NCBI GenBank assembly: GCA_028281535.1
Contig: JANQJS010000063.1
Span: 1 to 64,000, forward strand
From: Sedimentisphaerales bacterium
GTDB taxonomy: Bacteria > Planctomycetota > Phycisphaerae > Sedimentisphaerales > SM23-30
DNA length: 64,000 bases
Direction: 5' to 3'
Part shown: positions 1,340-17,744 of the stretch, piece by piece
How positions within the stretch are numbered: position 1 is the stretch's first letter
Layout: each line of letters opens with the position of its first letter
The notes under the pieces: model-generated
What the model saw: only the letters and a program-made list of their open reading frames with translations
What the model was told of the DNA's origin: nothing
Database searches by the model: none
Translations under genes and position numbers: made by a program

Positions 1340-2121
1340 TTGAGTTGATCATACCGCAAAAACCCATGTTTTTCAAAAACCTTTAATGCAGGCGGACTAA
1401 GGAGAAACTCATGAAAGTCTTCAACCTCTTTGAGTCGATCTGAATTTTGCAACATCACTATGGGATAAATAATGGGATCATGATCGCTCGATGAAAATTC
1501 ATGGACTATGTAAACATCCTGACTGGCATGAGCATCACTAGCATACACAATCCCAACCTGAGCTTCACCGGTTTGAATAAAATTTAATGCCATACGGACA
1601 CTTTGGCCCCGTACGATTTTACCCGACTCAATCAGCTTTTGATAACATTCGATACCTTGAAGCGCTTGCTGAGCGTATTGTCCAGCGGGTACATTCTGGC
1701 CAGCCAAAGCAATCCGTTGAATGGAAGGCTGTAACAGATAATCAGCTATATCCATTTCCAGTATCTCTTTGGTATTGGAAATCACGACCAGTTGATTGCT
1801 TAATAAAGGCTCAGGTGAAAACGATAGCTCTTTTTCGTAGAGAAGTTGAGTCCATTTAGGATTAGCACTAAAAAAAAGATCCGCCGGCACACCAGCAAGA
1901 ATCTGCTGAGCCAGGGCATTAGACGCTCCGGATGAAATGACAACGCGCTGGCCAGACCTTTGATAATATAAATCCGCAATTTCCTGACAGGCATCTACCG
2001 TGCTGGATGCGGTTAGAAATAAAATGGATGTCGCATTGTTTTTTGAATCTTGGGAATCAACAAAAAGAAAACTCAAAAATAGTATTGTGACCCAAAAAAT
2101 AACTAGAATGGAATATTTCAT
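1336..2121 (-). CDS. modA: Molybdate ABC transporter periplasmic substrate-binding protein ModA
   Basis: 261 aa with an N-terminal signal/TM segment. ModA-like length and sequence (SSGASNALAQQILAGVPADLFFSA), at the first position of the modABC gene order. Confidence 0.85.
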   Translation of the reverse strand: MKYSILVIFWVTILFLSFLFVDSQDSKNNATSILFLTASSTVDACQEIADLYYQRSGQRVVISSGASNALAQQILAGVPADLFFSANPKWTQLLYEKELSFSPEPLLSNQLVVISNTKEILEMDIADYLLQPSIQRIALAGQNVPAGQYAQQALQGIECYQKLIESGKIVRGQSVRMALNFIQTGEAQVGIVYASDAHASQDVYIVHEFSSSDHDPIIYPIVMLQNSDRLKEVEDFHEFLLSPPALKVFEKHGFLRYDQLK

Positions 2122-2154: not shown

Positions 2155-4374
2155 TTACAATCGCACATCAGCAGAAATGAAACGCAACAGAGAATCACGT
2201 CCCCATTGAAATAAAGTGCTTTTGCCGCAATCAATTCTAACGCGACCTGACATATAGCTTCGTGCTGAAGATACCAGGGTCTCTGGATCTAATTGAATCG
2301 TCACTTCATAGGCTGTTTCAACGGGTTTTTCCTGTTGAGTGATCGGATCATATTCTGTTAAAACTTCGCCACCAACCTTATTACTTAGGGCCATTTTTTC
2401 ACCAAACTCACCCATATCTTCCTGCTGGTGAGGACTGACCTCAACAACTTGACCACTAAATCGATCAGCAGGAAATGCATATAACATTAACTCTGCATTC
2501 TGGCCTAATTGATCAGACTGTTTAAAGATTCGCGTGTAGGTTTTTTCTGGAACCCATACTTTTGCCTCCAGACGAGTGGGATCTGCTAAAAACAAAAGAG
2601 GTGCCCCTTGTGGTTGAAACTGTTTTTCCATCTGTCGCAATTGTAATTCATCAGTAAAGACCTGAGCCTTAAACGGCACTTTGATTTTTAAAGCCGCCAT
2701 CATCTCATCCAATCGCTGCTGGTCTCGTTGTAATTTTTCTAAATAGTCATCGATTTTCATGACATTACTGCTAACACCCGATTGACGCATCACACGCTTA
2801 TCAATCATGGCCTGTTTAACACTTTCGGTCAAACGCACTTTCTCATATGCCAATCGCCCATTAGATAGCTCCACGGCAAGGCCATCATTCGTTTCCGGAT
2901 CAACCCAATGCCCTTCCGAAATATCATCTTTCCAGTTTAACACACCACCAACCTCGCTACGAATATAGCTTTTCTGATGCGGCTCAAGAACAAAGTTTAA
3001 TACGACATGCTGTTTCATAGGCCAGAACATCACAACACCTAGAAGTGTTACAATACCAGCAAGCAATACCATTAATCGAACATTGGTGATTCCATAGACC
3101 TGACGTTTCTTGATAATCATATCTCCCATTTTATAGGTAGGAATTAATAACATCGTTAAAGCACAAAAAACCACTAAAAGAGTTCCCACCCACTCCAAAC
3201 GAACCTGGCTTAAATAATTGTAGAGTAAATATAAAATCATTATCATAATAAACCAACGGTACGCTACTGCAGCAACCGAAAATATAGGAAACATAAAACG
3301 GTAGCGATGTTCTTCTCGCATCTCTTCGGCATAACCACCCATAACATACCTGACAAAAATACCTGTCATATATCGGCTAGCTCGTTGACGCAAATTGGGA
3401 ACTTCAATCAAATCCATCAACATGTAATAGCCATCATATCGCAATAGTGGATTGGCATTAAATAAGATAGTGGATATGGAGCAAGCGACCATCACATTAA
3501 ATGCAATCGTATGTATAAACGAAGGAGCAGATGTAAAGTACCAGACAATCGCTGCTACGGCCGCAAAAAAGACCTCGGTCATGATACCGCCTGCCGTGAC
3601 CAAAAAACGATGTCGCTTATTGGTAAAGGTCCAGGAATCTGTCACGTTACAATAGAAAAAAGGCATAAACACCAGGCATAGATACCCCATTTCATGTACT
3701 TCCCCTCCATAATGTTTACACATCAATCCATGACCAAATTCATGAAACCCCTTAATAATCCAAATCACTGCAAACAATATTGGGATATTATAAATGGTGA
3801 AAAAATTCGATTTGAACATCACGGAAAATTCACTCGCTTTGTCGGCCACCAAACCAATTGCAACAATAATAAGTAAAATGTAAAATAGGATAAATGGCTT
3901 TGACCAGAGCCAACTCATTCGAGCATGCATTTTATCTAATATTTTATCAGGATCAAAAAGCGGTATTCTGAAAAACATGAAGTTAAAAATCTGTTTTTTA
4001 AACTTTGACTTCCATGCATTCTGACGGGCATCATACAACAGTTGGTCACGATGAGGTTGATGTGCCATCACTAGATTTTTCTTTAATAGATCACTGACAA
4101 ACAATCCGATTTCCTGATTATCCAAATCATCACTATTAAATTCGTTTAGATAAGCCTGCTTGACCGATTCAACCGTTGAAGGCTGTCGCAATAAATCCAA
4201 TACAAAATATTCTTCGCGATTGAAACGATAATACTTTAAGGAAAGTGGATCTTTGATAACAAAATATCGCTGGCCATCATAAATCTGCTCGGTCACTTCC
4301 AGTTCCTGGCGCAAGACCGGCAAGTCATGATCATCCAGGGTAAAATTATTTGCGTCAATATTTTGTGCCATCAA
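2155..4374 (-). CDS. Membrane metalloprotease of the peptidase M50 / site-2-protease type, with a C-terminal HlyD-like membrane-fusion (barrel-sandwich/coiled-coil) domain fused to it
   Basis: 739 aa. An HExxH motif (GFHEFGHGL) sits in a TM helix and a downstream NPLLRYDGYY (LDG-like) motif in a later TM helix, as in S2P/M50 enzymes. After the last TM segment there is a ~270-aa soluble region with coiled-coil (LEKLQRDQQRLDEMMAALK) and beta-rich HlyD-like sequence. The stop lies only 33 nt upstream of the modA start. Confidence 0.7.
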   Translation of the reverse strand: MMAQNIDANNFTLDDHDLPVLRQELEVTEQIYDGQRYFVIKDPLSLKYYRFNREEYFVLDLLRQPSTVESVKQAYLNEFNSDDLDNQEIGLFVSDLLKKNLVMAHQPHRDQLLYDARQNAWKSKFKKQIFNFMFFRIPLFDPDKILDKMHARMSWLWSKPFILFYILLIIVAIGLVADKASEFSVMFKSNFFTIYNIPILFAVIWIIKGFHEFGHGLMCKHYGGEVHEMGYLCLVFMPFFYCNVTDSWTFTNKRHRFLVTAGGIMTEVFFAAVAAIVWYFTSAPSFIHTIAFNVMVACSISTILFNANPLLRYDGYYMLMDLIEVPNLRQRASRYMTGIFVRYVMGGYAEEMREEHRYRFMFPIFSVAAVAYRWFIMIMILYLLYNYLSQVRLEWVGTLLVVFCALTMLLIPTYKMGDMIIKKRQVYGITNVRLMVLLAGIVTLLGVVMFWPMKQHVVLNFVLEPHQKSYIRSEVGGVLNWKDDISEGHWVDPETNDGLAVELSNGRLAYEKVRLTESVKQAMIDKRVMRQSGVSSNVMKIDDYLEKLQRDQQRLDEMMAALKIKVPFKAQVFTDELQLRQMEKQFQPQGAPLLFLADPTRLEAKVWVPEKTYTRIFKQSDQLGQNAELMLYAFPADRFSGQVVEVSPHQQEDMGEFGEKMALSNKVGGEVLTEYDPITQQEKPVETAYEVTIQLDPETLVSSARSYMSGRVRIDCGKSTLFQWGRDSLLRFISADVRL

Positions 4375-4412
4375 TCTTCATTCAATGATTTGATATTTAT
4401 TATTAACCAACA

Positions 4413-5372
4413 TTAATTGTCAGGAATATTATCTAATTCGACACGAGCTTCCATTCCTTCACGAAACAGGTAAGGATATTCGCCTTTAGCCGCATCTTTC
4501 TTAGGTGGATTTTTAAGTTCAACTTGAATTTCAAACTCGTTAATAACCACGGTTGGACTAATGTAAACCACTTTAGCCAGTACCGGGGTATCTTCATAAT
4601 CTCGAACGTAAACAATCGCTTCCTGGCCTAATTTTACAGAGTTAACCTGAGAAGCTGGCACTTGATGGCTTAATTTGAAACGATCCACTTTCATAACCAC
4701 CATGACTTCCTGGCCGGTTCTGACGGCTTCACCTACCTCTGGTTTTTTTAAGCTTCTCTCACGCATAGATGGAATCGTATTAAACGAAACCACCACTCCA
4801 TCAATCGGAGAAACGACTTTATGTTTTTTCAGGTTCACTTTCTGAGTCTTTAGATCATTTTCCATCAATATTTTTTCGAGCTTGGCTTCCTGAACATCCA
4901 GATCTGCGATTTCTTTGGCCTGCTTTGCTTCTCTTAATTCTTTTTGAGAAACAGCAGCAATATTGGTATTTCCAATTTTTTCTTCAGCCAACCCTTTCAA
5001 TAAATTATAGGTATCCGTTCGATATTCCTGGTTGACAAGTGCCTTTTTAAATTTTGTTCCCATCTGCAATTGCTCTTCGATCCGCTCAACTTGAAGTTCG
5101 ATCAACTCAGCATCAAAATCGATTAAGACATCCCCTTTCTTGACAAAATCCTGAGCTTTGTGGTGAATCTTTTTAATCACAGCGACCACTTCGGAACTTA
5201 AGATTACGACTTTATCGGCTTGCAAAGGGACGTAACCCGCATTGTCATCGATGTTGAAACTGCTGGTATCAAAATTGCTATCCTGACTTCGTAAAATTCC
5301 TGTCACACCTGAGCAACATATAAAGAAACAAATGAGAACCATCCATTGTTTTCGATTGAGATTCATCTTCAA
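4413..5372 (-). CDS. HlyD-family membrane-fusion / periplasmic adaptor protein
   Basis: 319 aa with an N-terminal signal/anchor (MVLICFFICCSGVTG) and a biotin-lipoyl-like segment (VVILSSEVVAVIKKIHHKAQDFVKKGDVLIDF). It also has a long coiled-coil and a C-terminal beta domain. Confidence 0.75.
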   Translation of the reverse strand: MKMNLNRKQWMVLICFFICCSGVTGILRSQDSNFDTSSFNIDDNAGYVPLQADKVVILSSEVVAVIKKIHHKAQDFVKKGDVLIDFDAELIELQVERIEEQLQMGTKFKKALVNQEYRTDTYNLLKGLAEEKIGNTNIAAVSQKELREAKQAKEIADLDVQEAKLEKILMENDLKTQKVNLKKHKVVSPIDGVVVSFNTIPSMRERSLKKPEVGEAVRTGQEVMVVMKVDRFKLSHQVPASQVNSVKLGQEAIVYVRDYEDTPVLAKVVYISPTVVINEFEIQVELKNPPKKDAAKGEYPYLFREGMEARVELDNIPDN

Positions 5373-5416
5373 TCCTTTCCTTTCCTACAGATTGAAATTT
5401 ACCGGCCAGTTGATTT

Positions 5417-7399
5417 TTAGAAAAAGGCCACTCGAAGAAAATCCATAAATTCGTGCGTATATGCAAAATAGAGACTTCGCTCACCACACTCTACCGAGAC
5501 TTTGCCTTCCAGGCCAACACGTGGATCAACGATCGATCGGAGATTCTCTGGCTGAGCAACTAGAATTTCTATGACATTTTCATATTTTTGATCGCCCGTT
5601 GAATCCACATAAGCTCGCGGTGAAACCGAAATAACATGAGATTCAAACTTGGTATCAGGATACGCATTTAAGATAATATTCGCTTTGAGGGTCTGGCCTT
5701 CATCCAAAGCATCAAACGCTTTCAGTAACTGCCCTGATTTGGCCTCTGGAATCTTTACCGTCAAATCCCAGGTCGATTTATTGGGAACAACTTCGATAAT
5801 AGCATCGCCACGATTGACAGGCTTGGAGAGCATTTGACGTAACTCACTTTCACGTGTGATCAATTGGCCCGTCAGCGGTGCACGAATTAAATATTTCTCA
5901 AGATCCAACTGAGCTTTTTTCAGCTGAGCCGTTGAACTGATAAGTTGACTTTGATAACGCGCCACCATCGGCTGATTATTGCGGCTTTTAGATTCATGCA
6001 GGTTAATGCGCGTTTCGTTGATCACGTTCGTGATACGATCAATTTCTGCATCTATGATTTTTGTATCCAACCGAGCTACGATATCGCCTTTTTGAACTTG
6101 CCGATCTTCAGGCACATCGATTCTTTCAATCAGTCCTTCCTGGTTGGCATAGGCCACTCGGGCATCCATGGGCGTCAGCTCCGCAGTGCCTTTCACCTTG
6201 ACCTGCTTACTGAAAACCATCGGTAAGATAAACAAAATCGCCCAGAAAACCAACCAAACCCATCGCCGCCCAGCATGCATTCGATAGACCTTATCACGCA
6301 ATTTTGCTGCAGGTCGTAAGATCGGTGCCATGGGCATCGTACGATAAGCAAGACCATTCGATAATGCACTACCTGCTTCGACAAGCAAATTATCGATTTG
6401 CTCACGTTCATGCTGCTCTATAGGCTGCTCTTTGGCTTTTTCAATCACCAAAGCACCCACTACAATATTGTCAAAAACAATGGGAAAGACACCCATGGTT
6501 TGTGATTTTGCTTCCAGCATATATAAACGGGCTTCCAGAATTAAGTCATCGCTTTTTTCTGTCCGGCTTAATGCAGCGTTTGGATTATCTACCAGTAACA
6601 CTTTATTATTTTGACAGACCTGGCGAGCCACTTTGGAAATACTTTTGATAAAATTACTCTTCACAGCAACCGATTCCAATCCTGAAACCGATTCCATGCG
6701 AAATTTTCCTGCACTGTTGTATGTACCAGCCAGACAGCGGTAGACACCCAACATTTCCTGAGCATAATTGGCCAGGGCATAACAACTTCGTCTGGGATCC
6801 AAGCTGCTGTGAAGGGAACTGACATACTGGCGAAAACGATCTGACCGTGATAATTGCTGGTTCATTTCGCTCATACGCAGGCGTTGTAAAAACAAACTGG
6901 CCTTGCGGCACAAACCAGTTAAATATTCCGTAAAACCACGTATCGCACGAGGGTCAATATCAGGCGGTGTCAGGACCAAAAGAATCTTTTCCAATTTCTC
7001 CGAAGCAACGATTGGCACAAATACCATCGTATGTTGGCTTCGATTAACGGCATCTTTACCTAAACCACCATCGTACAAATTTGAGCCATCGCTGGCTGGC
7101 AAAATGACTGGTTGATTTGTTTCCGAAATACGAATAAAGGCTTTTCCCAGGAGATCAAATTGGCTGCCATTCTTTTCTAAGCCAGCAAGCTGAAGATTGA
7201 TGTGATGTTGCGTATCAATGGCATTATTCGCCTTGACCGTCCAGACACCCCCACCGACGCCAAGTACAGTGACAATACCTTCTAAAAATCGCTTAAAGAA
7301 TTCCTCATCCGAATCGATGGTATGACTTAGCTCATCGATTTGGACATTTAGGACAGCTAAATGATCCTGAAACTCCTTTTCCTGGACATCTGTAGACAT
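5417..7399 (-). CDS. Bitopic membrane protein: cytoplasmic tandem GAF-like domains, a single TM helix, and a periplasmic HlyD-like membrane-fusion domain
   Basis: 660 aa with a TM helix near residue 390 (RRWVWLVFWAILFILPMVF). The C-terminal half has lipoyl-like (VQKGDIVARLD), coiled-coil and beta-barrel MFP signatures. The N-terminal 380 aa look like two GAF-like alpha/beta modules; this is inferred from the sequence pattern and needs an HMM check. Confidence 0.6.
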   Translation of the reverse strand: MSTDVQEKEFQDHLAVLNVQIDELSHTIDSDEEFFKRFLEGIVTVLGVGGGVWTVKANNAIDTQHHINLQLAGLEKNGSQFDLLGKAFIRISETNQPVILPASDGSNLYDGGLGKDAVNRSQHTMVFVPIVASEKLEKILLVLTPPDIDPRAIRGFTEYLTGLCRKASLFLQRLRMSEMNQQLSRSDRFRQYVSSLHSSLDPRRSCYALANYAQEMLGVYRCLAGTYNSAGKFRMESVSGLESVAVKSNFIKSISKVARQVCQNNKVLLVDNPNAALSRTEKSDDLILEARLYMLEAKSQTMGVFPIVFDNIVVGALVIEKAKEQPIEQHEREQIDNLLVEAGSALSNGLAYRTMPMAPILRPAAKLRDKVYRMHAGRRWVWLVFWAILFILPMVFSKQVKVKGTAELTPMDARVAYANQEGLIERIDVPEDRQVQKGDIVARLDTKIIDAEIDRITNVINETRINLHESKSRNNQPMVARYQSQLISSTAQLKKAQLDLEKYLIRAPLTGQLITRESELRQMLSKPVNRGDAIIEVVPNKSTWDLTVKIPEAKSGQLLKAFDALDEGQTLKANIILNAYPDTKFESHVISVSPRAYVDSTGDQKYENVIEILVAQPENLRSIVDPRVGLEGKVSVECGERSLYFAYTHEFMDFLRVAFF

Positions 7400-7628
7400 C
7401 CCATTCTCCTTACAGGTTTTATAAACGTCCTAATATCATATCAAAACCCTAGCTTCTCACAAGAGCCTTTTTTATCCACTTTATGATTTTCCTCACTTAT
7501 TTCGAGAAAATAAGTAATTCAAACATACAGACTTATAGATATTTAGGGCTAGAAATCGTTTCTGGCCCTGATCCTGGCCATACTATTCGAAAACGAATCT
7601 ATCTGTGTTATCATCGCAATACAGGCAT

Positions 7629-7663
7629 AAAAAAAGCCCGATCTCGTATGAGACCGGGCTTTT
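7629..7663 (-). terminator. Rho-independent terminator (bidirectional hairpin) downstream of the giant gene
   Basis: GCCCGATCTC-GTAT-GAGACCGGGC hairpin. It is flanked by A7 on the plus strand (a T7 run on the minus strand) and TTTT. Confidence 0.7.
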
Positions 7664-7700: not shown

Positions 7701-10700
7701 TTAGATAACTTCAGTACGATCAGTGATAACTTCACCATTGATGGAAGATGAGCTGAATCGTCCGAAGATCGTTGCATCAGAGACACTACCAAGGAACTGA
7801 CTGTTCGTTGCATTACCTGCGATGAATAGTGAGTTCGTGGTGCCTTGTACGAAGACATTACTAATGCTTGATGCATTGAAGTTCATGACATTGCCAAGAA
7901 CATCAAAGTTACGGATGCGACCAGATGACAAGTAGTCAACGTTACCACCGACAAAACCTTTTTGCAGTGATTCCGCTTTGATTAAATCGGCATCACCAGC
8001 GATGGCCACACCGCGAAGTGCAGAAGTCGTTTCGACTGAATCCAGGCTACCTTCAACAATCAAGTTTTTGACTTTCAGCTTGCCATGAACATCAACATGA
8101 CCAACGTTAGCACCGTTAGATCCGACAACACCATTCTTAGAAGCTTTCATAATGGTTTTGAAACCTGCTTCATCAACAGTTCCACCTGCAGCAGCCAAAG
8201 CAGCACTACCTTTTCCTGTCGTACTGGTGACATCAATATCAGTGACTTTACCGAAGATTGAACTCCAGGCAGCTGAAACATTTTTGCTACCTTTGAGGTA
8301 TAGACTCTGAGTAGTTGCACCATTGTATTCCACAGTTTGCAGTGAGCTGGTTTTGCTCAATGTACCACTGTCAGTGATACGATCAGTAGGATCATTGATA
8401 TCACCATCTGTGAACAGGTCACCGAAGTTGTTTGCTGTCAAGTCTGCGGTTGAACCATCGATGTCACCATCGTCTGTTCCAAACTCACGAACGTTGATCA
8501 AATCAACATCACCCAAGACTGGTGGGTCTGAATCGTTATTAGAAGAAGTTGTACCTTCAATTGACAAGTCACCAGCCCAGTCACCCCAGATGTTGATTTC
8601 AGTCACATCACCAACGATGTCAACTTCAGCACCTGCGTCATCTAGACCAACAATATCAAGCTGTTCAATAATGTAGTCAGTACTATCATTGTTATCAATA
8701 ATACCCGCAGCACCACCACTGACTTCAACTGAAATCGAGTCTTGGCTGAATGGGTTATTTTCAGAAACGATGGTTTCACCATCAATGGCTTTCAAGCCGA
8801 TGTTCACATCAACATCAGACAGACCAGTGATTGCTCCACCTGCGTTTGGAACGATCATACGGCTAATGAAACCAGCGACAGTCATGTTGCCAATGTTTTC
8901 AGATCCGATTGGAACTTGAAGACCACCAAAGTCACCGAAGATATCGAAGTCACCAGCAATATCACCAGCAAGAACATAAATCGTTCCAGTCGCTGTTCCG
9001 GTTGGTTCTGGAGTACCTAAGCCATCAATCACAACCGTTGGTGCAACAGTGCGGAAGTCAAGTGTACTTGAAACGTCACCCGCTTCGACCAGCACACCAC
9101 CAGTAAACCATGATGGAATACCAGCAGCAACAGCAGCACCATAAGCAGCTGAGATCGTAGCGTTGTCGATGTCACCACCAACAGCACCCGTTCCTTCAGA
9201 TTCCCAGGTACCAGACCAGTCCAAGCTAGAAGCAATTGAACCGAATGAGGTTGCTGTATGAACGGTACCAGAAACTGAACCATTCAGAGATACAACATAA
9301 CCAAGGCTGTCGATATCAGCAGTAACGCTTACATTACCAGAGGCAATGATGTTACCAGCGGTATCAGCATTAATACTTACAGTCAGATCTGTATTTTGAT
9401 CATCACCAATTTCTGCATCAAGTGCAGTTGGTGCTGTATCATCAATCACATCAGCAGTGAAGGCAGTTCCTTCATCAGCATTTGATGCTGCAAGGAAGTT
9501 CGCAGCCAATGTGTTAGAATCTAATGCGGTTGCATTGTCTGCAGCAACGATGTTGCCCAGTGTACCTGAAACAGTAACACCGAAACCATCACCATCTTCT
9601 TGAAGAAGAAGGATTTCATCAACACTAACAGGTGCACCATCACTTGCTGTCGCAGAAACAGTATCACTATCAGCAAAGATAATCAATTGATCGACGGTCA
9701 AGCCGTTTGCATCCAAGCCGGTATCAGCATCAATGTCGATGACTGCTACAGCACCAGGTGTTACTGTGTAAACACGAGGTGTGGTGTCAAGTGAGTCTGA
9801 ACGATCATTAATCGTTACACCAGTTGCACCAGCAGCAACACCAAAGAGCCAGTCACCACTGAAATCGTTACCAGTAATCGCACCAACTGTGCCACCGGTT
9901 AAGATATCAGCAGTCACATCACCTGTTGTTGCTGTGATAGCACCTAAAGTGCCACCAGCCTGGATCAAACCAGAACCGCCAACATTGACTTGAGCTGTAA
10001 CAGTACCAATGTTACCGCCAGCACTCAGTAAACCAGTAAAGCTACCGATTTGAGTCACGGTTCCATCTACATTGGTGACAGAGTTACCAATGGTCACAGC
10101 ACCAATATTGGTTGCAGCGATGATTGAACCCGTTAGGCTACCAGCAATATCAACAGCACCCGTTGAACCGGTTGAACCAGCTACACCAGCGTCGTTGAAG
10201 ATTTGAATGGTACCAGCCATATCGTTACCGGTTCCCGTGAAAGTTCCATCGGTACCAACGGTGATACTATCAATATCATAAGCGTTCAAACCACCTGTTG
10301 AAGTAATAGCACCTGTCACGGTGAAAGCAGCAATATCGTGACCTTCAATGACATAAGTCAGGTCACCATTAATGGTCACTGCACCTGTTACAATCGCGTT
10401 ATCTTCTTGTGAGATTTCAGTGATAACACCACCAGTAACTTCAAGTTCGAACGCGTTGACACCACCACCAGCTTCAAGTTCAATTGGAGTGATGAAAGCA
10501 CCAGCACCATCGCCATGCGTGACACTGATGTCACCACCGGTACTTGCAGGACCGACAGGAACAATGTAATCACCATCAGCAGGAACACCAATCGTGACCG
10601 TTCCTGCATTTGGATGCAAGAAGGCAGAAGTCATATTAGCGGCAGTTGGGTTATCAATACCCAGTACGCTACCTGCTGAGAACAAGCTTACGTTTGTTGT

Positions 10701-13700
10701 AATGACTGGAACAGTCACATCACCTTCAACAATCAAGCTAACCAACGTTCCGTCAGGACCAAGGTTGATACCAGAACCAGTGACGTTACCTTCAACAAGG
10801 ACAGTGCCAAGATCGTTGGTATCGTTTGTGACTGAGTCAGCATCAAAGTCTAGGTTGGTTAATCCGAAACCAGCACCATCAAGAATGGTGGTTGTGCCAT
10901 CAGCATCGGTATCGGTTGTTGTTAAGCTAATGTCAGCTGAAGCAGCTAAAGCAGCTGAGCCAGCATTATCCCAGTTATCGATTGTAATGGCGATGGTTTT
11001 ACCAGCACCATTGAAGACATAGTTATAAATTGGACCAGCGGTTGCATCGAATAAGTACGTTGCACCGTTAACAGCCCAGGTTGTCACAGGAGAACTTGTG
11101 GTTCCTAATGTAGCGGTTGTGTTACCAGTAATGGTTGCACCAGCCACATTATCAACATCACCACCAGCCGTAATGGTTGCTGAGTTAGCACCCGTTAGTG
11201 TTGTATTGGCATCAGCACCATCTGTAACGGTTACGGTATCGATATTACCAATTGTTGCGGTAATTGTACCAGCAATTGGTGTATCAATTGAGCTAACCGT
11301 TCCAATGTTACCACTGGAAGATGTGATGGTTGTGCTACCACCAGCACCGATACCAGCACCCGTTGCATCACCCGTTGCATTAACGGCGGTAATGTTTCCT
11401 TCAGCAGTAACATCGGCATCAACAGCAACACCAGCAACAGTTCCGATGGTTCCGGTTGTTGCGGTCACAGTTAAATCTGTAGCACCATCACCCAATGTAC
11501 CATTCAATGAGGTCACACTGGTAATGTTGGTATTTGCTGTAATGCTTGTTGTACCATTACCAGCACCGATGTTACCAACGGCTGTCACAGAACCAACGCT
11601 ACCATTGGTTGAAGTAATCGTGGTTGATTGAGCAGCATCAGCACCGATTGAGCCACCAACAAAGACGCTGGTGATGTCACCGGTTGAAGCAGTAATTGCT
11701 TCGTTGGCTGTCATGGCATTACCGAGGTTACCAGCAATGTTAACGTTGCCAATGCTCGTTGCTGTGATACTACCGTTAGCATTACCATTAACGATAATGT
11801 CTGCGATCGTACCTGTTGCAGTAATATCAGCACCATCATTAATGTTACCACCAGCACCCAAACCTGAACTACCGATCAGGATGTCACCAGCAGAACCATT
11901 AATGGTTAAGTTGCCACCCAGGTTACCACGAAGAATCAGGTCACCCATCAATCCGCCACCTGTGACGTTAATGGTCAGTGCACCACTGGTTGAACCGAAT
12001 TCAAGTGTTTCGCCAACAGCAGGAGCTACGGTACCCGATACGCCACCTTCAACAGTTACTGCGGAGAATGTCACGTTGGTAAAGCTACCAAGTGCACCAC
12101 TACCTTCAAAGATAATGGATCCGACAGTTACAGAGGAGGTCGCTGTAAATGTATTCACTAAGATTGGAGCTGCGTTCACATCAACATCAGTGTCGTTGAA
12201 TTGTTGTGCAGCACCTGTTTCCTGTTTTGAAGTAATGTAAATGTCAGGTGTCGTACCTGTGGTTGAATCAGCCAGAGAGGTGATATCAATTTGAGGACTA
12301 CCACCATTGGCATTACCATCAAAGACAACGTTTGCCGTCACACCTGTATCAACCGTTGTGGTTGACCCAGTTTCAAAAGCCCAGACAGCGTAGCTGACAC
12401 CATCATGAATGAAGGTTGCTAGCGGTGAGCTTGAAGTTGCGGCAGACGCAGTTACTGCAGCGTCAACACTTGCAGCACCTGCATCAATTAAATCAATATC
12501 AGCATCAGCTGTGATTGTACCGTTGATGTCATCACCAACTGCACCACCACTGCGAACCAAATCAATGTTTTGACCGGTAATGGTTGAGTTAATTCCACCA
12601 CCAGCAACAACACTGGTCACATTACCAGAGCTGTCTGAATCGCTATCAGCAGTAATCGCACCACCAGTGATGCTACCGGTTACTGCAACACTGAGAACAT
12701 CATCTTCAGCTGAGATGGTACCAGCGGTAATGTTACCACCAACAACAACTGAAGTAATGTCACCTGTTCCAGCGGTCACATTTGCGGTCAAGTTACCAGA
12801 GGTTGCTGTCACCGTACCAGAAATTAAACCAGCTGTTGCGACAATGTTACCATCAATGTTTGTACCAGCGGTAATGTTAGCAGCAATGTCACCTGCGGTT
12901 GCGGTAATAGCTCCATCAATGTCTGTACCAGCTGAAATGGTTGCACCAGAAGCGATGCCACCAGCTGTAACGGTTAGACCGCCATCGATGTCACCAGCAT
13001 CTGCTTTGAAGACACCGGTTGCAGCCACACCACCAGCATCAATGGTAAATAGACCTGTGAAGTTACCTGTTATTGCTTGAACAGTACCAGCTAAACCAAC
13101 CGTATCAATATCGATAGTGCTAGCAAAGTTGCCCGTTGTAGCAACCAAGCTACCAGCAGCTAAGATACCATCATCAATTTGAATGGCACCGGTGAAACCT
13201 GTTGCGGCAGTAATGGCTGCGGCCAGGTTACCATCAGCTGTGATAGCACCGATAGAACCTGCACTGGTAATCGCTGCGGTGATGTTACCACCTGCATCGA
13301 TTGAACCAATGTTACCGGTATTGGTTGAAATCGCTGCGGCGATGTTACCTTTACTGGTTCCAGATTCATCAGCATCCACCGTAATGGCACCTGTAATACT
13401 GTCAGCACTAATGGTTGCAGCAGAAGTGATATCACCGTTGGTAGATGTAATTGAAGCAATCGCACCACCCGTTGATTGGATGGTACCTGTAATATCAGTT
13501 GCAGCAGACACAGCACCAATGTTACCGTCAGATACGACAGAACCATCGATGGTGGTTGTTGCTGCAGTCACGGTACCGATTGTACCGTTACCTGTTCCTT
13601 TATTTGCAGTAAATGATGCACCAGAAAGAATACCACCGGCAGATGCACCAATGTTACCAATGGAAGCACCAGTGACAACCAGTGTACCAGTTGTGTCACC

Positions 13701-16490
13701 TAAGTTACCTGTGGTTGCGGTTACGTTACCAACGTCACCCGTATCTGCGGTACCACCATTATTAGCAGTAATCACAACACCACCAACACCACCGATTCCG
13801 GTGCTTGCTGTAATGTTGCCCACATCATCATTACCTTGAATGGTCACTGTACCACCAGTTGCATCAGAGGTGATGCTACCGGTTACACCTAAGGTTCCGA
13901 TAGAACCAAGAGCCGCACTTCCTTGTGCGTCAAATAAGATGTCACCAGCGACTGATGTACCGTCCGTTTGAATGGTAGCTGAAGAAGTTGAGTTTCCAAT
14001 GCTTTCACCTTGGAAGATCACATCACCACCATCATCGGTTGAAGCGACGGTAATACCAGCTAAAGTTAGGGCACCCAGTGCACCGTTGGTTGAACCAATG
14101 GTAATCGCACCGTTAACAGCAACACCTGTGTTGCTGATTAAGCCTGTTGCTGTGAAAGCAGCCATATCACCAGTACCCGTTCCGATACCGATGCTAATGT
14201 CACTATCATTGGTACCACTATTGGTAATAGCACCGGTTGTGGTTGTACCTGCGATACTACCGTTGGTTCCGGTGGTTACCAGGATGTCACCACCACCAGT
14301 ACCACTTGCGGTCAAAGCACCCAAGCTAACAGCACCGGTGAAACCTGTTGTACCACCATTAATGGTAGCTCCACCTGTTCCACTGGCTGTGATACCTGTG
14401 AAAGCTGTGCCACCGACAACACCAATACTGGTTCCGGCAGTCACGCTAAATGCACCTGTACTTGAAATGGTTAATAAACCATCAAGATCTAAAGTGCCAA
14501 TGGTTGTTGTAGAAGTCAGGCTGAAATCACCGCCACCAGACATGGTGTTTGCGGTGCTATCACCTAAGTCAACATTACCGATGACATTACCTTGAATGGT
14601 CACATCAGCATTGGCTGAGGTTGCCAGCATCAAGATAGAATCACCTAAGCTGAAGTTACCCATATCACCAGTGGTTGTACCAATGGTGACTGAACCAACT
14701 ACGTCAGCTTCTTGATCAATGTCAGTTGTAATCGTCACGGTACTTGAGAAATCACCAGTACCTGTTGGAGCAATAGTAATATCTGCATCACCTGATGAAT
14801 CCATATCGATGTCAGCAATAACAACAGCACCAGCGAATCCACCATTGGTGGTTGTACCCACTGTAATGTTACCAGAACCAGAACCGCTTGTGGTAATGGC
14901 ACCCAGTGTCACAGCACCGGTATAACCCGTTGTACCACCATCAATCAAGATATCACCAGACCCCGCAGAGGTAATGGCTGGGACGTTACCGCCACCAATC
15001 ACACCGATTGAGGTTGTTGCATCAATGGTAATTCCACCAGCGGAACTTGCTGCGGTTTGTAATGCTGCGGTTGAATCAATCGTACCAATCGTGGTACCTT
15101 GAATGATAACGTCACCTGTTGCGTTGGTACCATTGATTGTAATACCAGCAAGAGAAACGTTACCTAAAGCAGCACCGCTGTTACCAAATGTCATGGTACC
15201 AGGAGCGTTAACTGCAGTATTTTGAATTAAGCCAGCCGTAAAAGTCCCCATGGCACCCGTACCAGCCGTTGCAATGGTCAAGTCAGCATCAACGGTTGCA
15301 CTATTGGTCACAGTACCAACCGTTAAATTACCCATGCTACCATTTGTAGATGTTGTAATACTAATATCACCACCACCACTCTGAATGATGTTACCTGTTC
15401 CAACCGTGCTGCCGAAACCAGAATCACCACCATTGAAGGTGAAGTTACCAGTGCTACTTAATGTAAGACCACCGAATCCAAGGGCACCCGTCACACCATC
15501 ATCGGTTGCGCCGGTATCAACATCAATTGAGATATTACCAGCACCACCAACGGTCGTTAAACCAGCAACATCCCATGCACCACCGACACCTTCGGTCGTG
15601 ACTGTGAAGTTACCAGCAGCGGTCGTGATGACACCTTCCATATCAAGTGAAGCAATACCTGAACCTGCATCATTGTCAAAAGTCCAAGTGATACCGTTGG
15701 CACCAGGTAAAATATCACCATGCCAATCGATCGCACCAATTTGACCAGCGTCAATTAACGAATCGGTTGAAGTACCACCAATCAGGTCAACATCACCGTC
15801 GGTTGACGTCACGGTACCAATTGCACCTGTACCATTTGTGACGATGTGAGTTTCTACCGTCAGGCCAGTAAAGTTAGTAGCACCAAAGGTAATGTTACCA
15901 ATGGCCTGGTTGGCTGAACCGGTGTACGTCTCACCTGTATTGGCAGGAGCGGCTGAAATATTGGCACCAGCTGAGGTGAAGACAGTCGCCGTATCAGAAA
16001 GACCGTCAACGGTAAAGTCTTGATCATCATCACCAGCAGCATCTTCCGTTGTCGTAATACCAGTACCAATGATCAGATCAAGCTCAGTTGTACCGGCATC
16101 CAAACCACTCAGGTCGATGTTTGCAATATTTAAGTTAGTTACAAGGAAAATGGTCGCCGCACCAGCACCGCCAGTATCCTGAACGGTAATATTCAGCGTA
16201 AATGTATCCGTCGCACCACCATCGCTTAAGTCAGCGACCGTAACACTGTCGATACCCGTACTGGTTGCACCCAGAGCGATAAAACCGTCAGTAGCATTAA
16301 AGGTATTGTCGCCGGTGACATCGTATGCAGTATAATCACCGGGATTCAACACCACTGCAGCAGGAGCAATACGTTCTTCCAGTTCTTCAACTTTCAGACG
16401 CTGCTGATACTGCTGAATGCGATTGGCAAGCAGGGCAGATTTGGAATACCTGCTCGCGTTTCTAAATAATTTGCGAAGCCCATTGGCCAT
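7701..16490 (-). CDS. Giant (2929 aa) Gly/Thr/Ala/Ser/Ile/Asp/Asn-rich repetitive surface or secreted protein, probably a parallel beta-helix / adhesin-like repeat protein. There is no N-terminal signal peptide.
   Basis: Single uninterrupted ORF with a GGAGA RBS 7 nt before the ATG. It carries hundreds of short degenerate repeats of the type ITATTGNIGSIDAGGNITAA. The N-terminus MANGLRKLFRNASRYSKSALLANRIQQYQQRLKVEELEERIAPAAVV is charged and not Sec-like. Strong codon bias creates many spurious antisense ORFs. Confidence 0.85.
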   Translation of the reverse strand: MANGLRKLFRNASRYSKSALLANRIQQYQQRLKVEELEERIAPAAVVLNPGDYTAYDVTGDNTFNATDGFIALGATSTGIDSVTVADLSDGGATDTFTLNITVQDTGGAGAATIFLVTNLNIANIDLSGLDAGTTELDLIIGTGITTTEDAAGDDDQDFTVDGLSDTATVFTSAGANISAAPANTGETYTGSANQAIGNITFGATNFTGLTVETHIVTNGTGAIGTVTSTDGDVDLIGGTSTDSLIDAGQIGAIDWHGDILPGANGITWTFDNDAGSGIASLDMEGVITTAAGNFTVTTEGVGGAWDVAGLTTVGGAGNISIDVDTGATDDGVTGALGFGGLTLSSTGNFTFNGGDSGFGSTVGTGNIIQSGGGDISITTSTNGSMGNLTVGTVTNSATVDADLTIATAGTGAMGTFTAGLIQNTAVNAPGTMTFGNSGAALGNVSLAGITINGTNATGDVIIQGTTIGTIDSTAALQTAASSAGGITIDATTSIGVIGGGNVPAITSAGSGDILIDGGTTGYTGAVTLGAITTSGSGSGNITVGTTTNGGFAGAVVIADIDMDSSGDADITIAPTGTGDFSSTVTITTDIDQEADVVGSVTIGTTTGDMGNFSLGDSILMLATSANADVTIQGNVIGNVDLGDSTANTMSGGGDFSLTSTTTIGTLDLDGLLTISSTGAFSVTAGTSIGVVGGTAFTGITASGTGGATINGGTTGFTGAVSLGALTASGTGGGDILVTTGTNGSIAGTTTTGAITNSGTNDSDISIGIGTGTGDMAAFTATGLISNTGVAVNGAITIGSTNGALGALTLAGITVASTDDGGDVIFQGESIGNSTSSATIQTDGTSVAGDILFDAQGSAALGSIGTLGVTGSITSDATGGTVTIQGNDDVGNITASTGIGGVGGVVITANNGGTADTGDVGNVTATTGNLGDTTGTLVVTGASIGNIGASAGGILSGASFTANKGTGNGTIGTVTAATTTIDGSVVSDGNIGAVSAATDITGTIQSTGGAIASITSTNGDITSAATISADSITGAITVDADESGTSKGNIAAAISTNTGNIGSIDAGGNITAAITSAGSIGAITADGNLAAAITAATGFTGAIQIDDGILAAGSLVATTGNFASTIDIDTVGLAGTVQAITGNFTGLFTIDAGGVAATGVFKADAGDIDGGLTVTAGGIASGATISAGTDIDGAITATAGDIAANITAGTNIDGNIVATAGLISGTVTATSGNLTANVTAGTGDITSVVVGGNITAGTISAEDDVLSVAVTGSITGGAITADSDSDSSGNVTSVVAGGGINSTITGQNIDLVRSGGAVGDDINGTITADADIDLIDAGAASVDAAVTASAATSSSPLATFIHDGVSYAVWAFETGSTTTVDTGVTANVVFDGNANGGSPQIDITSLADSTTGTTPDIYITSKQETGAAQQFNDTDVDVNAAPILVNTFTATSSVTVGSIIFEGSGALGSFTNVTFSAVTVEGGVSGTVAPAVGETLEFGSTSGALTINVTGGGLMGDLILRGNLGGNLTINGSAGDILIGSSGLGAGGNINDGADITATGTIADIIVNGNANGSITATSIGNVNIAGNLGNAMTANEAITASTGDITSVFVGGSIGADAAQSTTITSTNGSVGSVTAVGNIGAGNGTTSITANTNITSVTSLNGTLGDGATDLTVTATTGTIGTVAGVAVDADVTAEGNITAVNATGDATGAGIGAGGSTTITSSSGNIGTVSSIDTPIAGTITATIGNIDTVTVTDGADANTTLTGANSATITAGGDVDNVAGATITGNTTATLGTTSSPVTTWAVNGATYLFDATAGPIYNYVFNGAGKTIAITIDNWDNAGSAALAASADISLTTTDTDADGTTTILDGAGFGLTNLDFDADSVTNDTNDLGTVLVEGNVTGSGINLGPDGTLVSLIVEGDVTVPVITTNVSLFSAGSVLGIDNPTAANMTSAFLHPNAGTVTIGVPADGDYIVPVGPASTGGDISVTHGDGAGAFITPIELEAGGGVNAFELEVTGGVITEISQEDNAIVTGAVTINGDLTYVIEGHDIAAFTVTGAITSTGGLNAYDIDSITVGTDGTFTGTGNDMAGTIQIFNDAGVAGSTGSTGAVDIAGSLTGSIIAATNIGAVTIGNSVTNVDGTVTQIGSFTGLLSAGGNIGTVTAQVNVGGSGLIQAGGTLGAITATTGDVTADILTGGTVGAITGNDFSGDWLFGVAAGATGVTINDRSDSLDTTPRVYTVTPGAVAVIDIDADTGLDANGLTVDQLIIFADSDTVSATASDGAPVSVDEILLLQEDGDGFGVTVSGTLGNIVAADNATALDSNTLAANFLAASNADEGTAFTADVIDDTAPTALDAEIGDDQNTDLTVSINADTAGNIIASGNVSVTADIDSLGYVVSLNGSVSGTVHTATSFGSIASSLDWSGTWESEGTGAVGGDIDNATISAAYGAAVAAGIPSWFTGGVLVEAGDVSSTLDFRTVAPTVVIDGLGTPEPTGTATGTIYVLAGDIAGDFDIFGDFGGLQVPIGSENIGNMTVAGFISRMIVPNAGGAITGLSDVDVNIGLKAIDGETIVSENNPFSQDSISVEVSGGAAGIIDNNDSTDYIIEQLDIVGLDDAGAEVDIVGDVTEINIWGDWAGDLSIEGTTSSNNDSDPPVLGDVDLINVREFGTDDGDIDGSTADLTANNFGDLFTDGDINDPTDRITDSGTLSKTSSLQTVEYNGATTQSLYLKGSKNVSAAWSSIFGKVTDIDVTSTTGKGSAALAAAGGTVDEAGFKTIMKASKNGVVGSNGANVGHVDVHGKLKVKNLIVEGSLDSVETTSALRGVAIAGDADLIKAESLQKGFVGGNVDYLSSGRIRNFDVLGNVMNFNASSISNVFVQGTTNSLFIAGNATNSQFLGSVSDATIFGRFSSSSINGEVITDRTEVI

Positions 16491-17357: not shown

Positions 17358-17378
17358 TAAATTACTTAAGCAACTATT

Positions 17379-17744
17379 TTATTTTTTTGCTTCAGGCTGT
17401 GCACTGAGTCGACGTTGCACGTTCAACTCGATCACACCGAAGTTTTGCTCATGACGCATAATGGTCTGTTGCAGAGCAGCAAATAATCTTTTGGCAGTAA
17501 AATGATTTAATACCAGACGATTATCAACTTTTACCTTCTGATCTTGTTGGCTATAAGGGTTTGGATTAAGGGAAAAATCAATAATGACCTCTTCAGGGGT
17601 ACCAGTCACACGGCAAAAATTTGAATAACTGGCTAATACGCCATCGTCATCCAAAGTGATTTTAACTTGAGGCTGATCCGCAGCCGGTTGCTCGGTTACT
17701 TTGGCTTCCTTTTTGGTTTTAGTGTCGTCTGCCATCAAAAACAT
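17379..17744 (-). CDS. Small conserved protein, DUF3467-like
   Basis: 121 aa. The motif YSNFCRVTGTPEEVIIDFS resembles the DUF3467 family. Its own terminator lies downstream. Confidence 0.5.
   Translation of the reverse strand: MFLMADDTKTKKEAKVTEQPAADQPQVKITLDDDGVLASYSNFCRVTGTPEEVIIDFSLNPNPYSQQDQKVKVDNRLVLNHFTAKRLFAALQQTIMRHEQNFGVIELNVQRRLSAQPEAKK

What the first reader, a model, noticed from the sequence alone, without database searches (positions are those of the whole stretch)
2155..4374. Peptidase M50 (S2P-like) membrane protease fused to an HlyD-like periplasmic domain
S2P proteases normally carry PDZ or CBS accessory domains. Here the last TM segment is followed by a ~270-aa coiled-coil/beta domain of membrane-fusion-protein type, and a ~130-aa cytoplasmic N-terminal extension precedes the protease core. 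Both are read directly from the sequence (HEFGH in a TM helix; NPLLRYDGYY later; LEKLQRDQQRLDEMMAALK coiled coil). The fusion suggests intramembrane proteolysis coupled to a trans-envelope conduit.
Basis: seen in the sequence. Interest (0 to 1): 0.65.

Follow-up and report, generated by a model that had tools for sequence, protein, structure and literature searches.

The report
Leader-binding membrane protease fused to secretion adaptor
The gene really encodes a membrane zinc protease fused to a periplasmic secretion-adaptor domain; the fusion is a widespread family already noted in 2015, and it probably helps process and export giant surface proteins that carry a short N-terminal "LE-x-R" tag.

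Summary
ORF 2155-4374 (-) encodes 739 aa in three modules. Residues ~20-100 are cytoplasmic and have a PqqD-like RiPP-recognition-element (RRE) fold. Residues 159-452 form a 7-TM site-2-protease core with invariant HExxH and NxxPxxxxDG. Residues 453-739 are a periplasmic membrane-fusion-protein (MFP) domain.

The fusion is not new. At least 3,644 clusters (50% identity) share it. Kamneva et al. 2015 (PMC4452313) described the same gene module (M50/HlyD, HlyD, GAF/HlyD, secondary SecA), with its role unknown.

I found no published mention of the following:
- The N-terminal extension is an RRE.
- A DUF3467 gene is a recurrent partner.
- Giant, acidic proteins without a Sec signal lie next to the cassette in Planctomycetota, Verrucomicrobiota and Alpha/Beta/Gammaproteobacteria. 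They carry an N-terminal LE-x-R ("LEPR-XLL") motif. The 2,929-aa protein at 7701-16490 is one of them.

Best model (inferred, ~0.5): an ABC-less, type-I-like exporter. The RRE binds the leader, the protease cleaves it, and three MFP paralogues bridge to a TolC-type channel.

Verdict: a new member of a known but uncharacterised kind, with a testable substrate hypothesis.

The parts
2155..4374 (-). RRE-S2P-MFP fusion protein, 739 aa (the finding)
   Evidence: ORF; domains; AF2 model with mean pLDDT 87.1; fold matches
4075..4317 (-). Cytoplasmic RRE (PqqD-like winged helix, aa ~20-100), beta3-alpha3 layout
3019..3900 (-). Seven-TM site-2-protease (M50) core, aa 159-452
3730..3744 (-). HEFGH zinc-binding/catalytic motif (aa 211-215) in TM2
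   Evidence: H211, E212, H215 invariant in 49/49
3430..3459 (-). NANPLLRYDG motif (aa 306-315), with the third zinc ligand Asp314
   Evidence: N306, P309, D314, G315 invariant
2158..3018 (-). Periplasmic membrane-fusion-protein domain (aa 453-739): lipoyl/barrel-sandwich, alpha-hairpin 506-560, beta-barrel
4413..5372 (-). Short MFP (319 aa) with N-terminal membrane anchor; 38-bp gap to the fusion gene
   Evidence: HlyD_D23/HlyD_3; RND_mfp; one N-terminal hydrophobic segment; conserved between the two larger genes in 57 loci
5417..7399 (-). GAF-TM-MFP protein (660 aa): cytoplasmic GAF, one TM at ~aa 380-396, periplasmic HlyD-like part
   Evidence: found on the same strand as, and close to, the fusion gene in most loci that have enough flank
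7701..16490 (-). Candidate substrate: 2,929-aa protein, Cys-free, acidic (D+E 10.4%, K+R 1.4%), G/T/A-rich, with no Pfam domain and no Sec-type signal
16350..16397 (-). N-terminal leader-like motif LKVEELEERIAPAAVV (aa 32-47), preceded by a +7 basic stretch
   Evidence: Same motif class next to homologous cassettes in L001, L002, L076, L061 and on proteobacterial plasmids
17379..17744 (-). DUF3467 protein (121 aa), a recurrent partner of the cassette
   Evidence: PF11950, 82 bits. tblastn finds it in 25 of the 83 genome loci, mostly flanking the cassette, and in 2 alphaproteobacterial plasmid loci; it is annotated in all 4 alphaproteobacterial plasmid cassettes

Best explanation
The protein is one inner-membrane polypeptide with three modules: a cytoplasmic leader-peptide-binding RRE, a seven-helix zinc site-2 protease whose active site faces the cytoplasmic leaflet, and a periplasmic membrane-fusion-protein domain. 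This much is shown.

It works inside a conserved cassette with two further MFP paralogues (GAF-TM-MFP and a short anchored MFP). DUF3467 is a frequent partner. In many genomes there is also a truncated SecA-like ATPase and a TolC-family channel. The cassette is shown by synteny.

Inferred mechanism: the cassette is an ABC-less, type-I-like export and maturation machine for very large, acidic, Cys-free surface proteins. These proteins lack a Sec signal and carry a basic N-terminus followed by an LE-x-R-x-(LL/AP/FD) motif (NCBIfam 'LEPR-XLL'). The RRE would capture this leader in the cytoplasm. The S2P would cleave at or just after it, by analogy with daptide leaders, whose conserved leader motif (consensus ELExMEAP; E(-8)..P(-1) in MpaA) ends at position -1, where the leader is removed. 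The three MFPs would form the periplasmic duct to an outer-membrane channel. Here the substrate would be the adjacent 2,929-aa protein. The energy source and the inner-membrane pore are not identified in this window.
For: Architecture.

Catalytic competence: HExxH and the Asp ligand are invariant, and the S2P core is the most conserved region, followed by the RRE.

Conserved cassette: the order GAF-MFP / MFP / RRE-S2P-MFP on one strand is the predominant arrangement among 83 loci from Planctomycetota and Chthoniobacter. The same module was published in PMC4452313.

Giant neighbours with the motif:
- window
- L001 and L002
- Chthoniobacter L076, two proteins directly downstream
- L061 and L038
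- Pseudosulfitobacter, 12.7k aa, NF012209 hit E 1e-8
- Thalassospira and Pontibrevibacter, annotated as LEPR-XLL proteins
- Eleftheria
- E. coli IncF plasmid
- B. anthina
Azospirillum and Methylosinus also have a giant gene next to the cassette, but their N-termini were not read.

A TolC gene lies inside the cassette in 6 of 9 proteobacterial loci inspected. A SecA-like gene lies inside in 3 of them.

The nearest sequence models are RiPP leader proteases with the same RRE-S2P layout: daptide MpaP and YydH/LiaK.

The giant protein has substrate-like properties: no Cys, pI-lowering composition, no hydrophobic signal.
Against: - There is no experimental data for any member.
- The NCBIfam LEPR-XLL model does not reach significance on the window's own giant protein, nor on the E. 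coli and Chthoniobacter ones. The motif assignment there is by eye plus a small home-made HMM trained on these same sequences.
- In most planctomycete loci no motif-bearing giant gene is adjacent. About 7 of 83 loci have a convincing one; looser N-terminal LE-x-R variants in a few more loci were seen by eye only. A one-machine, many-dispersed-substrates model must therefore be assumed.
- No SecA-like or TolC gene is in this 64-kb window.
- The beta/gamma-proteobacterial cassettes lack SecA and DUF3467, so the motor is unclear.
- S2Ps normally cut membrane-embedded helices, not soluble leaders.
- The Phyllobacterium neighbour (1,412 aa) shows no motif at its annotated start.
- RRE-leader docking could not be modelled.
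Confidence: 0.5

Rival explanations
1. Small-peptide (RiPP or pheromone) maturation and export: the RRE-S2P removes the leader from an unannotated short precursor peptide, as in daptide (MpaP) or epipeptide (YydH) systems, and the MFP domains help export the peptide. The giant gene would be a bystander.
For: The best sequence models are RiPP leader proteases (NF041824 E 5e-52; RiPP_HExxH_LiaK in homologues). RRE domains are typical of RiPP pathways. JGI names members 'putative peptide zinc metalloprotease'.
Against: The score is well below the daptide equivalog cut-off (177 vs 300). No modifying enzymes (radical SAM, dehydrogenase, aminotransferase, methyltransferase) lie in the cassette or among the conserved neighbours. 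No plausible short ORF was seen in the intergenic regions. The recurrent neighbours are giant proteins, not short ORFs. The short-ORF search was not exhaustive.
Confidence: 0.12
2. Signalling by regulated intramembrane proteolysis: like RseP or SpoIVFB, the protease cleaves a membrane-anchored regulator in response to a signal sensed by the GAF protein. The MFP domains would be periplasmic sensors or scaffolds rather than a conduit.
For: This is the classical role of S2P proteases (established knowledge). A GAF sensory domain sits in the partner protein. Kamneva et al. suggest a regulatory role for the GAF protein.
Against: No sigma/anti-sigma or membrane-tethered regulator is conserved near the cassette. 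Three true MFP folds plus TolC genes in the proteobacterial cassettes point to transport. An RRE implies a peptide-leader ligand.
Confidence: 0.08
3. The S2P-like membrane domain serves mainly as the inner-membrane pore or scaffold of a SecA-driven type-I-like exporter, as proposed by Kamneva et al. 2015. Proteolysis and leader cleavage would not be essential, and the RRE would act only as a substrate receptor.
For: Proposal in PMC4452313. No other polytopic membrane protein is in the cassette. A SecA-like ATPase is adjacent in many genomes.
Against: The zinc ligands and the catalytic Glu are invariant, and the protease core is the most conserved segment. That pattern is unexpected for a mere scaffold. 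A monomeric 7-TM S2P has no known protein-conducting channel.
Confidence: 0.2
4. Ordinary small-molecule efflux adaptor, as the database name 'HlyD family efflux transporter periplasmic adaptor subunit' implies, working with an ABC, RND or MFS pump encoded elsewhere.
For: MFP fold and Pfam/NCBIfam hits; automatic annotations.
Against: No pump gene lies in the cassette in any locus examined. The RRE and a conserved protease have no role in drug efflux.
Confidence: 0.05

Closest known systems
Secondary-SecA_DEAD / type-I-related module of Kamneva, Poudel & Ward 2015 (PLoS One, PMC4452313)
   Same: Same three HlyD-bearing proteins: Peptidase_M50+HlyD, HlyD/biotin-lipoyl, and GAF+HlyD. Same phyla (Planctomycetes, Verrucomicrobia, Proteobacteria). 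No ABC transporter. OEP/TolC sometimes adjacent.
   Different: No SecA_DEAD gene in this window. The paper states that the role is 'completely unknown' and does not mention DUF3467, or giant proteins as such, anywhere in its text. PqqD/RRE and LEPR were not among the terms searched in it. These three features are added here.
RRE-fused site-2 proteases of RiPP pathways: daptide MpaP (NF041824) and YydH/LiaK epipeptide proteases (NF058609)
   Same: N-terminal RRE followed by an HExxH intramembrane protease. E 5e-52 to the daptide model over aa 39-411. The daptide leader motif (consensus ELExMEAP) ends at position -1, where the leader is removed, and it resembles ELEERIAP in the giant protein.
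   Different: Below the equivalog cut-off (177 vs 300). No RiPP tailoring genes. Carries an extra ~290-aa periplasmic MFP domain. The putative substrate has thousands of residues, not ~30.
Peptidase-containing ABC transporter (PCAT) type-I systems (C39 peptidase-ABC + HlyD/CvaA-type MFP + TolC)
   Same: The logic is the same: a leader-specific protease is physically coupled to an MFP/TolC conduit, so leader removal and export are linked. Substrates lack Sec signals (established knowledge; analogy only).
   Different: A different protease class (zinc S2P vs cysteine C39). No ABC domains. The protease is fused to the MFP rather than to the transporter. Three MFP paralogues. The signal is N-terminal on giant proteins, whereas classical RTX-type T1SS substrates have C-terminal signals.
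Classical S2P proteases (RseP, SpoIVFB, M. jannaschii S2P)
   Different: No PDZ or CBS domains. An RRE and an MFP domain are present instead. Seven TM helices with N-in/C-out topology.
Periplasmic adaptor proteins MacA / EmrA / AcrA / MexA
   Different: Anchored by a 7-TM protease instead of a single helix or a lipid. No cognate pump gene.

Membership tests
Peptidase M50 / site-2 protease | HExxH motif within a transmembrane helix | tested here: met
   HEFGH at aa 211-215 in modelled helix 197-221; invariant in 49/49
Peptidase M50 / site-2 protease | Second motif NxxPxxxxDG that supplies the Asp zinc ligand | tested here: met
   NANPLLRYDG at aa 306-315; N306, P309, D314, G315 invariant
Peptidase M50 / site-2 protease | Pfam PF02163 at or above the gathering score | tested here: not met
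   19.1 bits vs 27.2 for this sequence. However, 48/49 homologues hit at E<0.01, best 5.7e-10, and NF041824 gives E 5e-52
Peptidase M50 / site-2 protease | S2P core fold | tested here: met
Peptidase M50 / site-2 protease | Zinc-dependent proteolytic activity | not testable with these tools
   Needs biochemistry
RiPP recognition element (PqqD-like) | Three-strand, three-helix winged-helix fold | tested here: met
RiPP recognition element (PqqD-like) | Sequence-model hit (PF05402 / TIGR03859) | tested here: inconclusive
   None for the window protein. PF05402 in 5/49 homologues. TIGR03859 E 1.5e-4 in the Pseudosulfitobacter homologue. TfuB1 E 0.089 with the family profile
RiPP recognition element (PqqD-like) | Binds a leader peptide | not testable with these tools
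Membrane fusion protein / periplasmic adaptor (HlyD family) | HlyD-type sequence domains | tested here: met
   PF13437, 29.9 bits vs 22.2; HlyD_D23 in 37/49 homologues
Membrane fusion protein / periplasmic adaptor (HlyD family) | Lipoyl / alpha-hairpin / beta-barrel fold | tested here: met
Membrane fusion protein / periplasmic adaptor (HlyD family) | Periplasmic location | tested here: met
   Positive-inside rule over 49 homologues gives C-out after 7 TMs. This is an inference, not a dedicated predictor
Membrane fusion protein / periplasmic adaptor (HlyD family) | Cognate ABC, RND or MFS inner-membrane transporter | tested here: not met
   None in the window's cassette or in any conserved neighbourhood (plasmid loci)
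Daptide biosynthesis protease MpaP (NF041824 equivalog) | Score at or above the curated cut-off (300 bits) | tested here: not met
   177.2 bits
Daptide biosynthesis protease MpaP (NF041824 equivalog) | Daptide gene-cluster context (MpaA precursor, MpaB/C/D/M) | tested here: not met
   The neighbours are MFPs, a giant protein, DUF3467 and modAB
Secondary-SecA type-I-related module (PMC4452313) | Co-encoded M50/HlyD, HlyD and GAF/HlyD proteins | tested here: met
   Genes at 2155-7399 on one strand with 38-44 bp gaps
Secondary-SecA type-I-related module (PMC4452313) | Secondary SecA_DEAD protein in the neighbourhood | tested here: not met
   No SecA-like sequence in the 64-kb window. The paper notes it can be encoded elsewhere. 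The rest of the genome could not be examined
LEPR-XLL N-terminal domain proteins (NF012209), for the adjacent giant protein | HMM hit at or above cut-off (17 bits) at the N-terminus | tested here: not met
   No hit for the window's giant protein. The Pseudosulfitobacter neighbour scores 34.4 bits. The window motif ELEERIAPAAV is a variant recognised only by alignment with other cassette-linked leaders
Classical type I secretion system | ABC transporter plus a C-terminal or RTX-type signal on the substrate | tested here: not met
   No ABC exporter in the cassette. The giant protein has no Pfam domain at all, RTX included

The most novel reading that the evidence does not exclude
The RRE-S2P-MFP protein and its partners (two MFP paralogues, DUF3467, a truncated SecA-like ATPase, TolC) form a distinct, experimentally unexplored secretion pathway. 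It would be dedicated to giant proteins that carry the N-terminal LEPR-XLL / LE-x-R leader. The leader would be read by an RRE, a domain so far known only from RiPP biosynthesis, and removed by an intramembrane protease during export. [quoted passage not shown]
Probability: 0.4. Interest if true: 0.85.

Novelty: new member of a known kind. Interest (0 to 1): 0.58.

Why it matters
Giant surface proteins with the LEPR-XLL N-terminus occur in many phyla. [quoted passage not shown] I found no published link between that motif and any secretion machinery.

The gene context found here points to a specific and widespread machine, with at least 3,644 clusters at 50% identity. It would combine a RiPP-type leader reader, an intramembrane protease and a type-I-like duct without an ABC transporter. 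If this is right, it defines a new route of protein export and a new use of the RRE domain.

The cassette also sits on natural E. coli and Citrobacter plasmids and in Azospirillum brasilense Sp7. It is present in 24 of 5,426 complete E. coli genomes. The hypothesis can therefore be tested directly in organisms that are easy to manipulate genetically.

Tried and rejected
- Literature search 'M50 + HlyD + fusion' gave only false positives, such as residue M507 and DOIs containing 'M500...'. 'Site-2 protease + HlyD + RiPP' found no paper and 'DUF3467' only one unrelated paper.
- The exact-sequence contig look-up for the database protein P0001, which aligns at 100% identity, found nothing.
- The NCBIfam LEPR-XLL model does not detect the window's giant protein, nor the E. 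coli and Chthoniobacter leaders. I therefore do not file the window's giant protein as a member of NF012209.
- DUF3467 as a SecB-like chaperone: the AF2 model is only moderate (pLDDT 62.6; four strands plus a helix). Foldseek against the PDB (best E 0.59) and a sequence-profile search against the PDB (best E 0.086, chorismate synthase) gave nothing meaningful. The idea is unsupported, not disproved.
- Search for a short precursor ORF in the gaps 7400-7700 and 16490-17379: only low-complexity, unconserved ORFs were seen.
- A leader HMM run over the 83 genome loci recovered only its training sequences plus L038. Adjacency of motif-bearing giant genes is therefore not general in Planctomycetota.
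- Promoter and terminator scans were uninformative: counts equal chance, and there is no clear terminator inside the cassette. Rfam found only three tRNAs.
- No SecA, TolC/OEP or ABC exporter was found among the window's large ORFs.
- The paper on Omnitrophota giant genes (10.1101/2023.11.21.568195) concerns SecA domains inside giant proteins and type II-like loci. It is not this cassette.
Full report
**1. Observation**

A single ORF occupies 2155-4374 on the minus strand (739 aa, TTG start). A database protein that aligns at 100% identity over the whole query is 738 aa. HEFGH is at aa 211-215 and NANPLLRYDG at aa 306-315. In an alignment of 49 homologues at 28-61% identity, these residues are invariant: H211, E212, H215, N306, P309, D314, G315.

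Pfam gives HlyD_3 above threshold (aa 564-666). Peptidase_M50 is only sub-threshold for this sequence (19.1 vs 27.2 bits). The protease assignment still stands on other evidence:
- NCBIfam 'daptide biosynthesis intramembrane metalloprotease' matches aa 39-411 at E 5.4e-52.
- 48 of 49 family members hit PF02163.

**2. The N-terminal extension is an RRE**

Supporting sequence evidence:
- Five of 49 homologues hit Pfam PqqD.
- A proteobacterial homologue hits TIGR03859 PqqD.
- NCBI names some members 'PqqD family peptide modification chaperone'.
- The daptide paper states that the daptide protease is an RRE fused N-terminally to a site-2 protease (10.1101/2023.03.08.531785).

The invariant RRE residues (K41, Y48, R50, E55) and the nearly invariant ones (F92, L96) lie on strand 3 and helices 1 and 3. 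In solved RRE complexes this is where leaders bind. That last point is an inference from known RRE structures.

**3. Topology**

Seven hydrophobic helices are predicted. Over 49 homologues the mean K+R counts are:
- loops predicted cytoplasmic: 3.9, 7.5 and 5.2 (the N-terminal region has 25.6)
- loops predicted periplasmic: 1.7, 0.1 and 0.7

This gives N-in, C-out. The HExxH and Asp motifs sit near the cytoplasmic ends of their helices. The MFP domain is periplasmic.

**4. How common is the fusion?**

- The word-indexed search returned 4,826 significant hits from a capped candidate list. The listed ones cover 91-100% of the query, apart from two truncated sequences, down to 29-32% identity.
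- The exhaustive search of 1.84 billion cluster representatives found 3,644 clusters at E<=1e-30. Most of the best 150 are 700-760 aa long, and in a majority the match runs from about residue 20 to about 720.
The best 80 are almost all labelled Planctomycetota (every major class), with Chthoniobacter (Verrucomicrobiota) and one Bacteroidales-labelled MAG as exceptions.
- tblastn against plasmids found homologues in Alpha-, Beta- and Gammaproteobacteria, including E. coli and Citrobacter.

The architecture is therefore a large, old family and not a one-off fusion.

**5. Gene context**

In the window the minus strand carries, in order:
- DUF3467 (17379-17744)
- a 2,929-aa protein (7701-16490)
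- GAF-TM-MFP (5417-7399)
- a short anchored MFP (4413-5372)
- the RRE-S2P-MFP gene (2155-4374)
- modA/modB

The gaps inside the three-gene core are 38-44 bp.

Across 83 related genome loci, the order GAF-MFP / short MFP / RRE-S2P-MFP on one strand is the predominant arrangement wherever enough flank exists. DUF3467 lies in 25 of these loci, usually directly next to the cassette. A 650-680-aa SecA-like protein directly precedes the cassette in five Pirellulales loci. No ABC, RND or MFS transporter is part of the conserved set.

**6. Prior knowledge**

Kamneva, Poudel & Ward (PLoS One 2015, PMC4452313) described this module while studying 'secondary SecA_DEAD' proteins. It comprises three HlyD-containing proteins (one with weak Peptidase_M50 similarity, one with GAF), sometimes an OEP protein, and no ABC transporter. 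[quoted passage not shown]

They proposed SecA as the ATPase and the M50 protein as a possible pore. They stated that the biological role is 'completely unknown'.

The held library has no other paper that combines S2P and HlyD. It has none on DUF3467 in this context. It has none that links the LEPR-XLL motif to a secretion machine.

**7. Candidate substrate**

The adjacent 2,929-aa protein has these properties:
- no Pfam domain
- no cysteine
- D+E 10.4% against K+R 1.4%
- no hydrophobic signal peptide
- an N-terminus of net charge +7, followed by LKVEELEERIAPAAVV

The same kind of N-terminus is found on large proteins encoded next to homologous cassettes in unrelated lineages:

| Organism or locus | Leader motif | Size and position |
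|---|---|---|
| Sedimentisphaerales-type loci L001, L002 | EELE(D/E)RIAPA | adjacent giant genes |
| Chthoniobacter L076 | LEVLEPRIAPA, LEQLEPRIAPA | two proteins directly downstream |
| Planctomycetaceae L061 | ETLEPRDLLA | after DUF3467 |
| Pseudosulfitobacter | ETFEPRVLLSA | ~12,700 aa; NF012209 LEPR-XLL hit, E 1e-8 |
| Thalassospira | IEPRILLSAD | annotated LEPR-XLL protein |
| Pontibrevibacter | MEPRVLLSAD | annotated LEPR-XLL protein |
| Eleftheria | ALEARLMFDAAA | adjacent giant gene |
| E. coli IncF plasmid | ALESRQLFDGAA | ~4,460 aa |
| Burkholderia anthina | ALEPRVVYDAS | adjacent giant gene |

Azospirillum brasilense Sp7 and Methylosinus also have giant genes in the same position. 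Their N-termini were not read.

All nine proteobacterial plasmid loci inspected carry a large gene beside the cassette, and eight of these are giants of more than 3,000 aa. In seven loci it sits directly next to the cassette; in Phyllobacterium a ~700-bp gap and in Eleftheria the gene order differ. Six loci include TolC. Three include the SecA-like gene, which is variously annotated 'translocase', 'DEAD/DEAH box helicase' or 'prepilin peptidase' although the proteins are 46-50% identical to one another. The exception among the large neighbours is a 1,412-aa protein in Phyllobacterium that shows no motif at its annotated start.

Two cassette flavours appear:
- One has DUF3467, a long GAF-type MFP and a SecA-like protein. 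It goes with 'LLSA' or 'IAPA' leaders.
- The other, in Beta- and Gammaproteobacteria and Azospirillum, has neither DUF3467 nor SecA. Where the leader was read it is of the 'FDGA/FDAA/YDAS' type.

**8. Mechanism**

Shown: the three-module architecture; conserved catalytic residues; the S2P core and the RRE as the most conserved parts (52% and 34% identity to distant homologues, against 23% for the MFP); and the conserved cassette.

Inferred:
- The RRE binds the acidic LE-x-R leader. The invariant K41 and R50 could pair with the two Glu residues.
- The protease removes the leader. In daptides the conserved leader motif (consensus ELExMEAP; E(-8)..P(-1) in MpaA) ends at position -1, where the leader is removed. 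The window's ELEERIAP has the same E, L, A and P positions.
- The three MFPs build a periplasmic duct to a TolC-type channel.

Open points: the inner-membrane pore, and the energy source. A SecA-like ATPase is a candidate where present, but none is in this window.

**9. Weaknesses**

- No member has been studied experimentally.
- The curated LEPR-XLL model does not detect the window's own leader.
- The home-made leader HMM is trained on the very sequences it recovers.
- Most planctomycete cassettes have no motif-bearing giant gene next to them. One machine would therefore have to serve substrates dispersed around the genome.
- DUF3467 has no recognisable fold relative.

**10. Verdict**

The fusion is a member of a known but functionally uncharacterised family (novelty: new member of a known kind).

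Three additions make it a concrete, testable candidate for the export route of giant surface proteins: the identification of the RRE, the DUF3467 partner, and the cross-phylum linkage to giant proteins with LE-x-R leaders. The cassette is present on E. coli plasmids (24 of 5,426 complete genomes), which gives an easy experimental entry point.

Noticed in passing
window 17379-17744 (-): DUF3467 protein (PF11950, 82 bits), very highly conserved (69-86% identity among relatives, far more than the cassette proteins). It recurs next to the cassette in Planctomycetota and Alphaproteobacteria. The AF2 model is moderate (four strands plus a helix) and has no fold match, so its role is unknown.
   Followed up: partly
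window 7701-16490 (-): 2,929-aa protein with no Pfam domain and no cysteine. Composition G 16%, T 15%, A 12%, with only 1.4% K+R. It is probably a repetitive beta-rich surface fibre. Its fold and repeat structure were not analysed.
   Followed up: partly
window 18238-19797 (+): Unusually long signal peptidase I (519 aa; TIGR02227 in three separate stretches), transcribed divergently from the DUF3467 gene. A possible functional link to the export cassette was not examined.
   Followed up: no
window 614-2121 (-): Molybdate ABC genes modA and modB start only 33 bp downstream of the fusion gene, with no clear terminator between them. This adjacency is not conserved in related loci.
   Followed up: partly
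window 25148-28226 (-), 32107-33696 (+), tRNAs at 28422-30876 (-): RNA-repair cluster: RtcB ligase, RtcA cyclase and an RNase T-like exonuclease in a row, three tRNA genes, and the sigma-54 activator RtcR nearby.
   Followed up: no
window 47508-52472 (-): 1,654-aa protein with galactose-oxidase-like, Kelch, fn3 and cupredoxin-like domains. Next to it is a FecR/LamG protein (52700-54430) and two proteins of 492 and 596 aa with no Pfam match (43854-47221).
   Followed up: no
window 19982-21633: SprA-related family protein (19982-20788, +) and a small PEP-CTERM protein (20944-21633, -).
   Followed up: no
L084 / NZ_CP081687.1 44829-64580, and 23 other E. coli genomes: E. coli and Citrobacter plasmids (a few copies are chromosomal) carry a full cassette: a ~4,460-aa Ig-like protein with an ALESRQLFDGAA leader, TolC, two MFPs and the RRE-S2P-MFP gene. 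There is no SecA-like or DUF3467 gene. All copies are >=99% identical, and the cassette is flanked by IS elements.
   Followed up: partly
L097 16171-18087; L091 14088-16073; L085 10093-12075: The cassette-linked truncated SecA-like ATPase (~640-660 aa) is inconsistently annotated in RefSeq as 'prepilin peptidase', 'DEAD/DEAH box helicase' or 'translocase', although the proteins are 46-50% identical to one another.
   Followed up: yes
L001 12667-14874 (-) and L003 12676-14805 (-): A ~710-735-aa protein with no Pfam hit lies convergently just downstream of the fusion gene in two distantly related loci. It is not present in the window.
   Followed up: no
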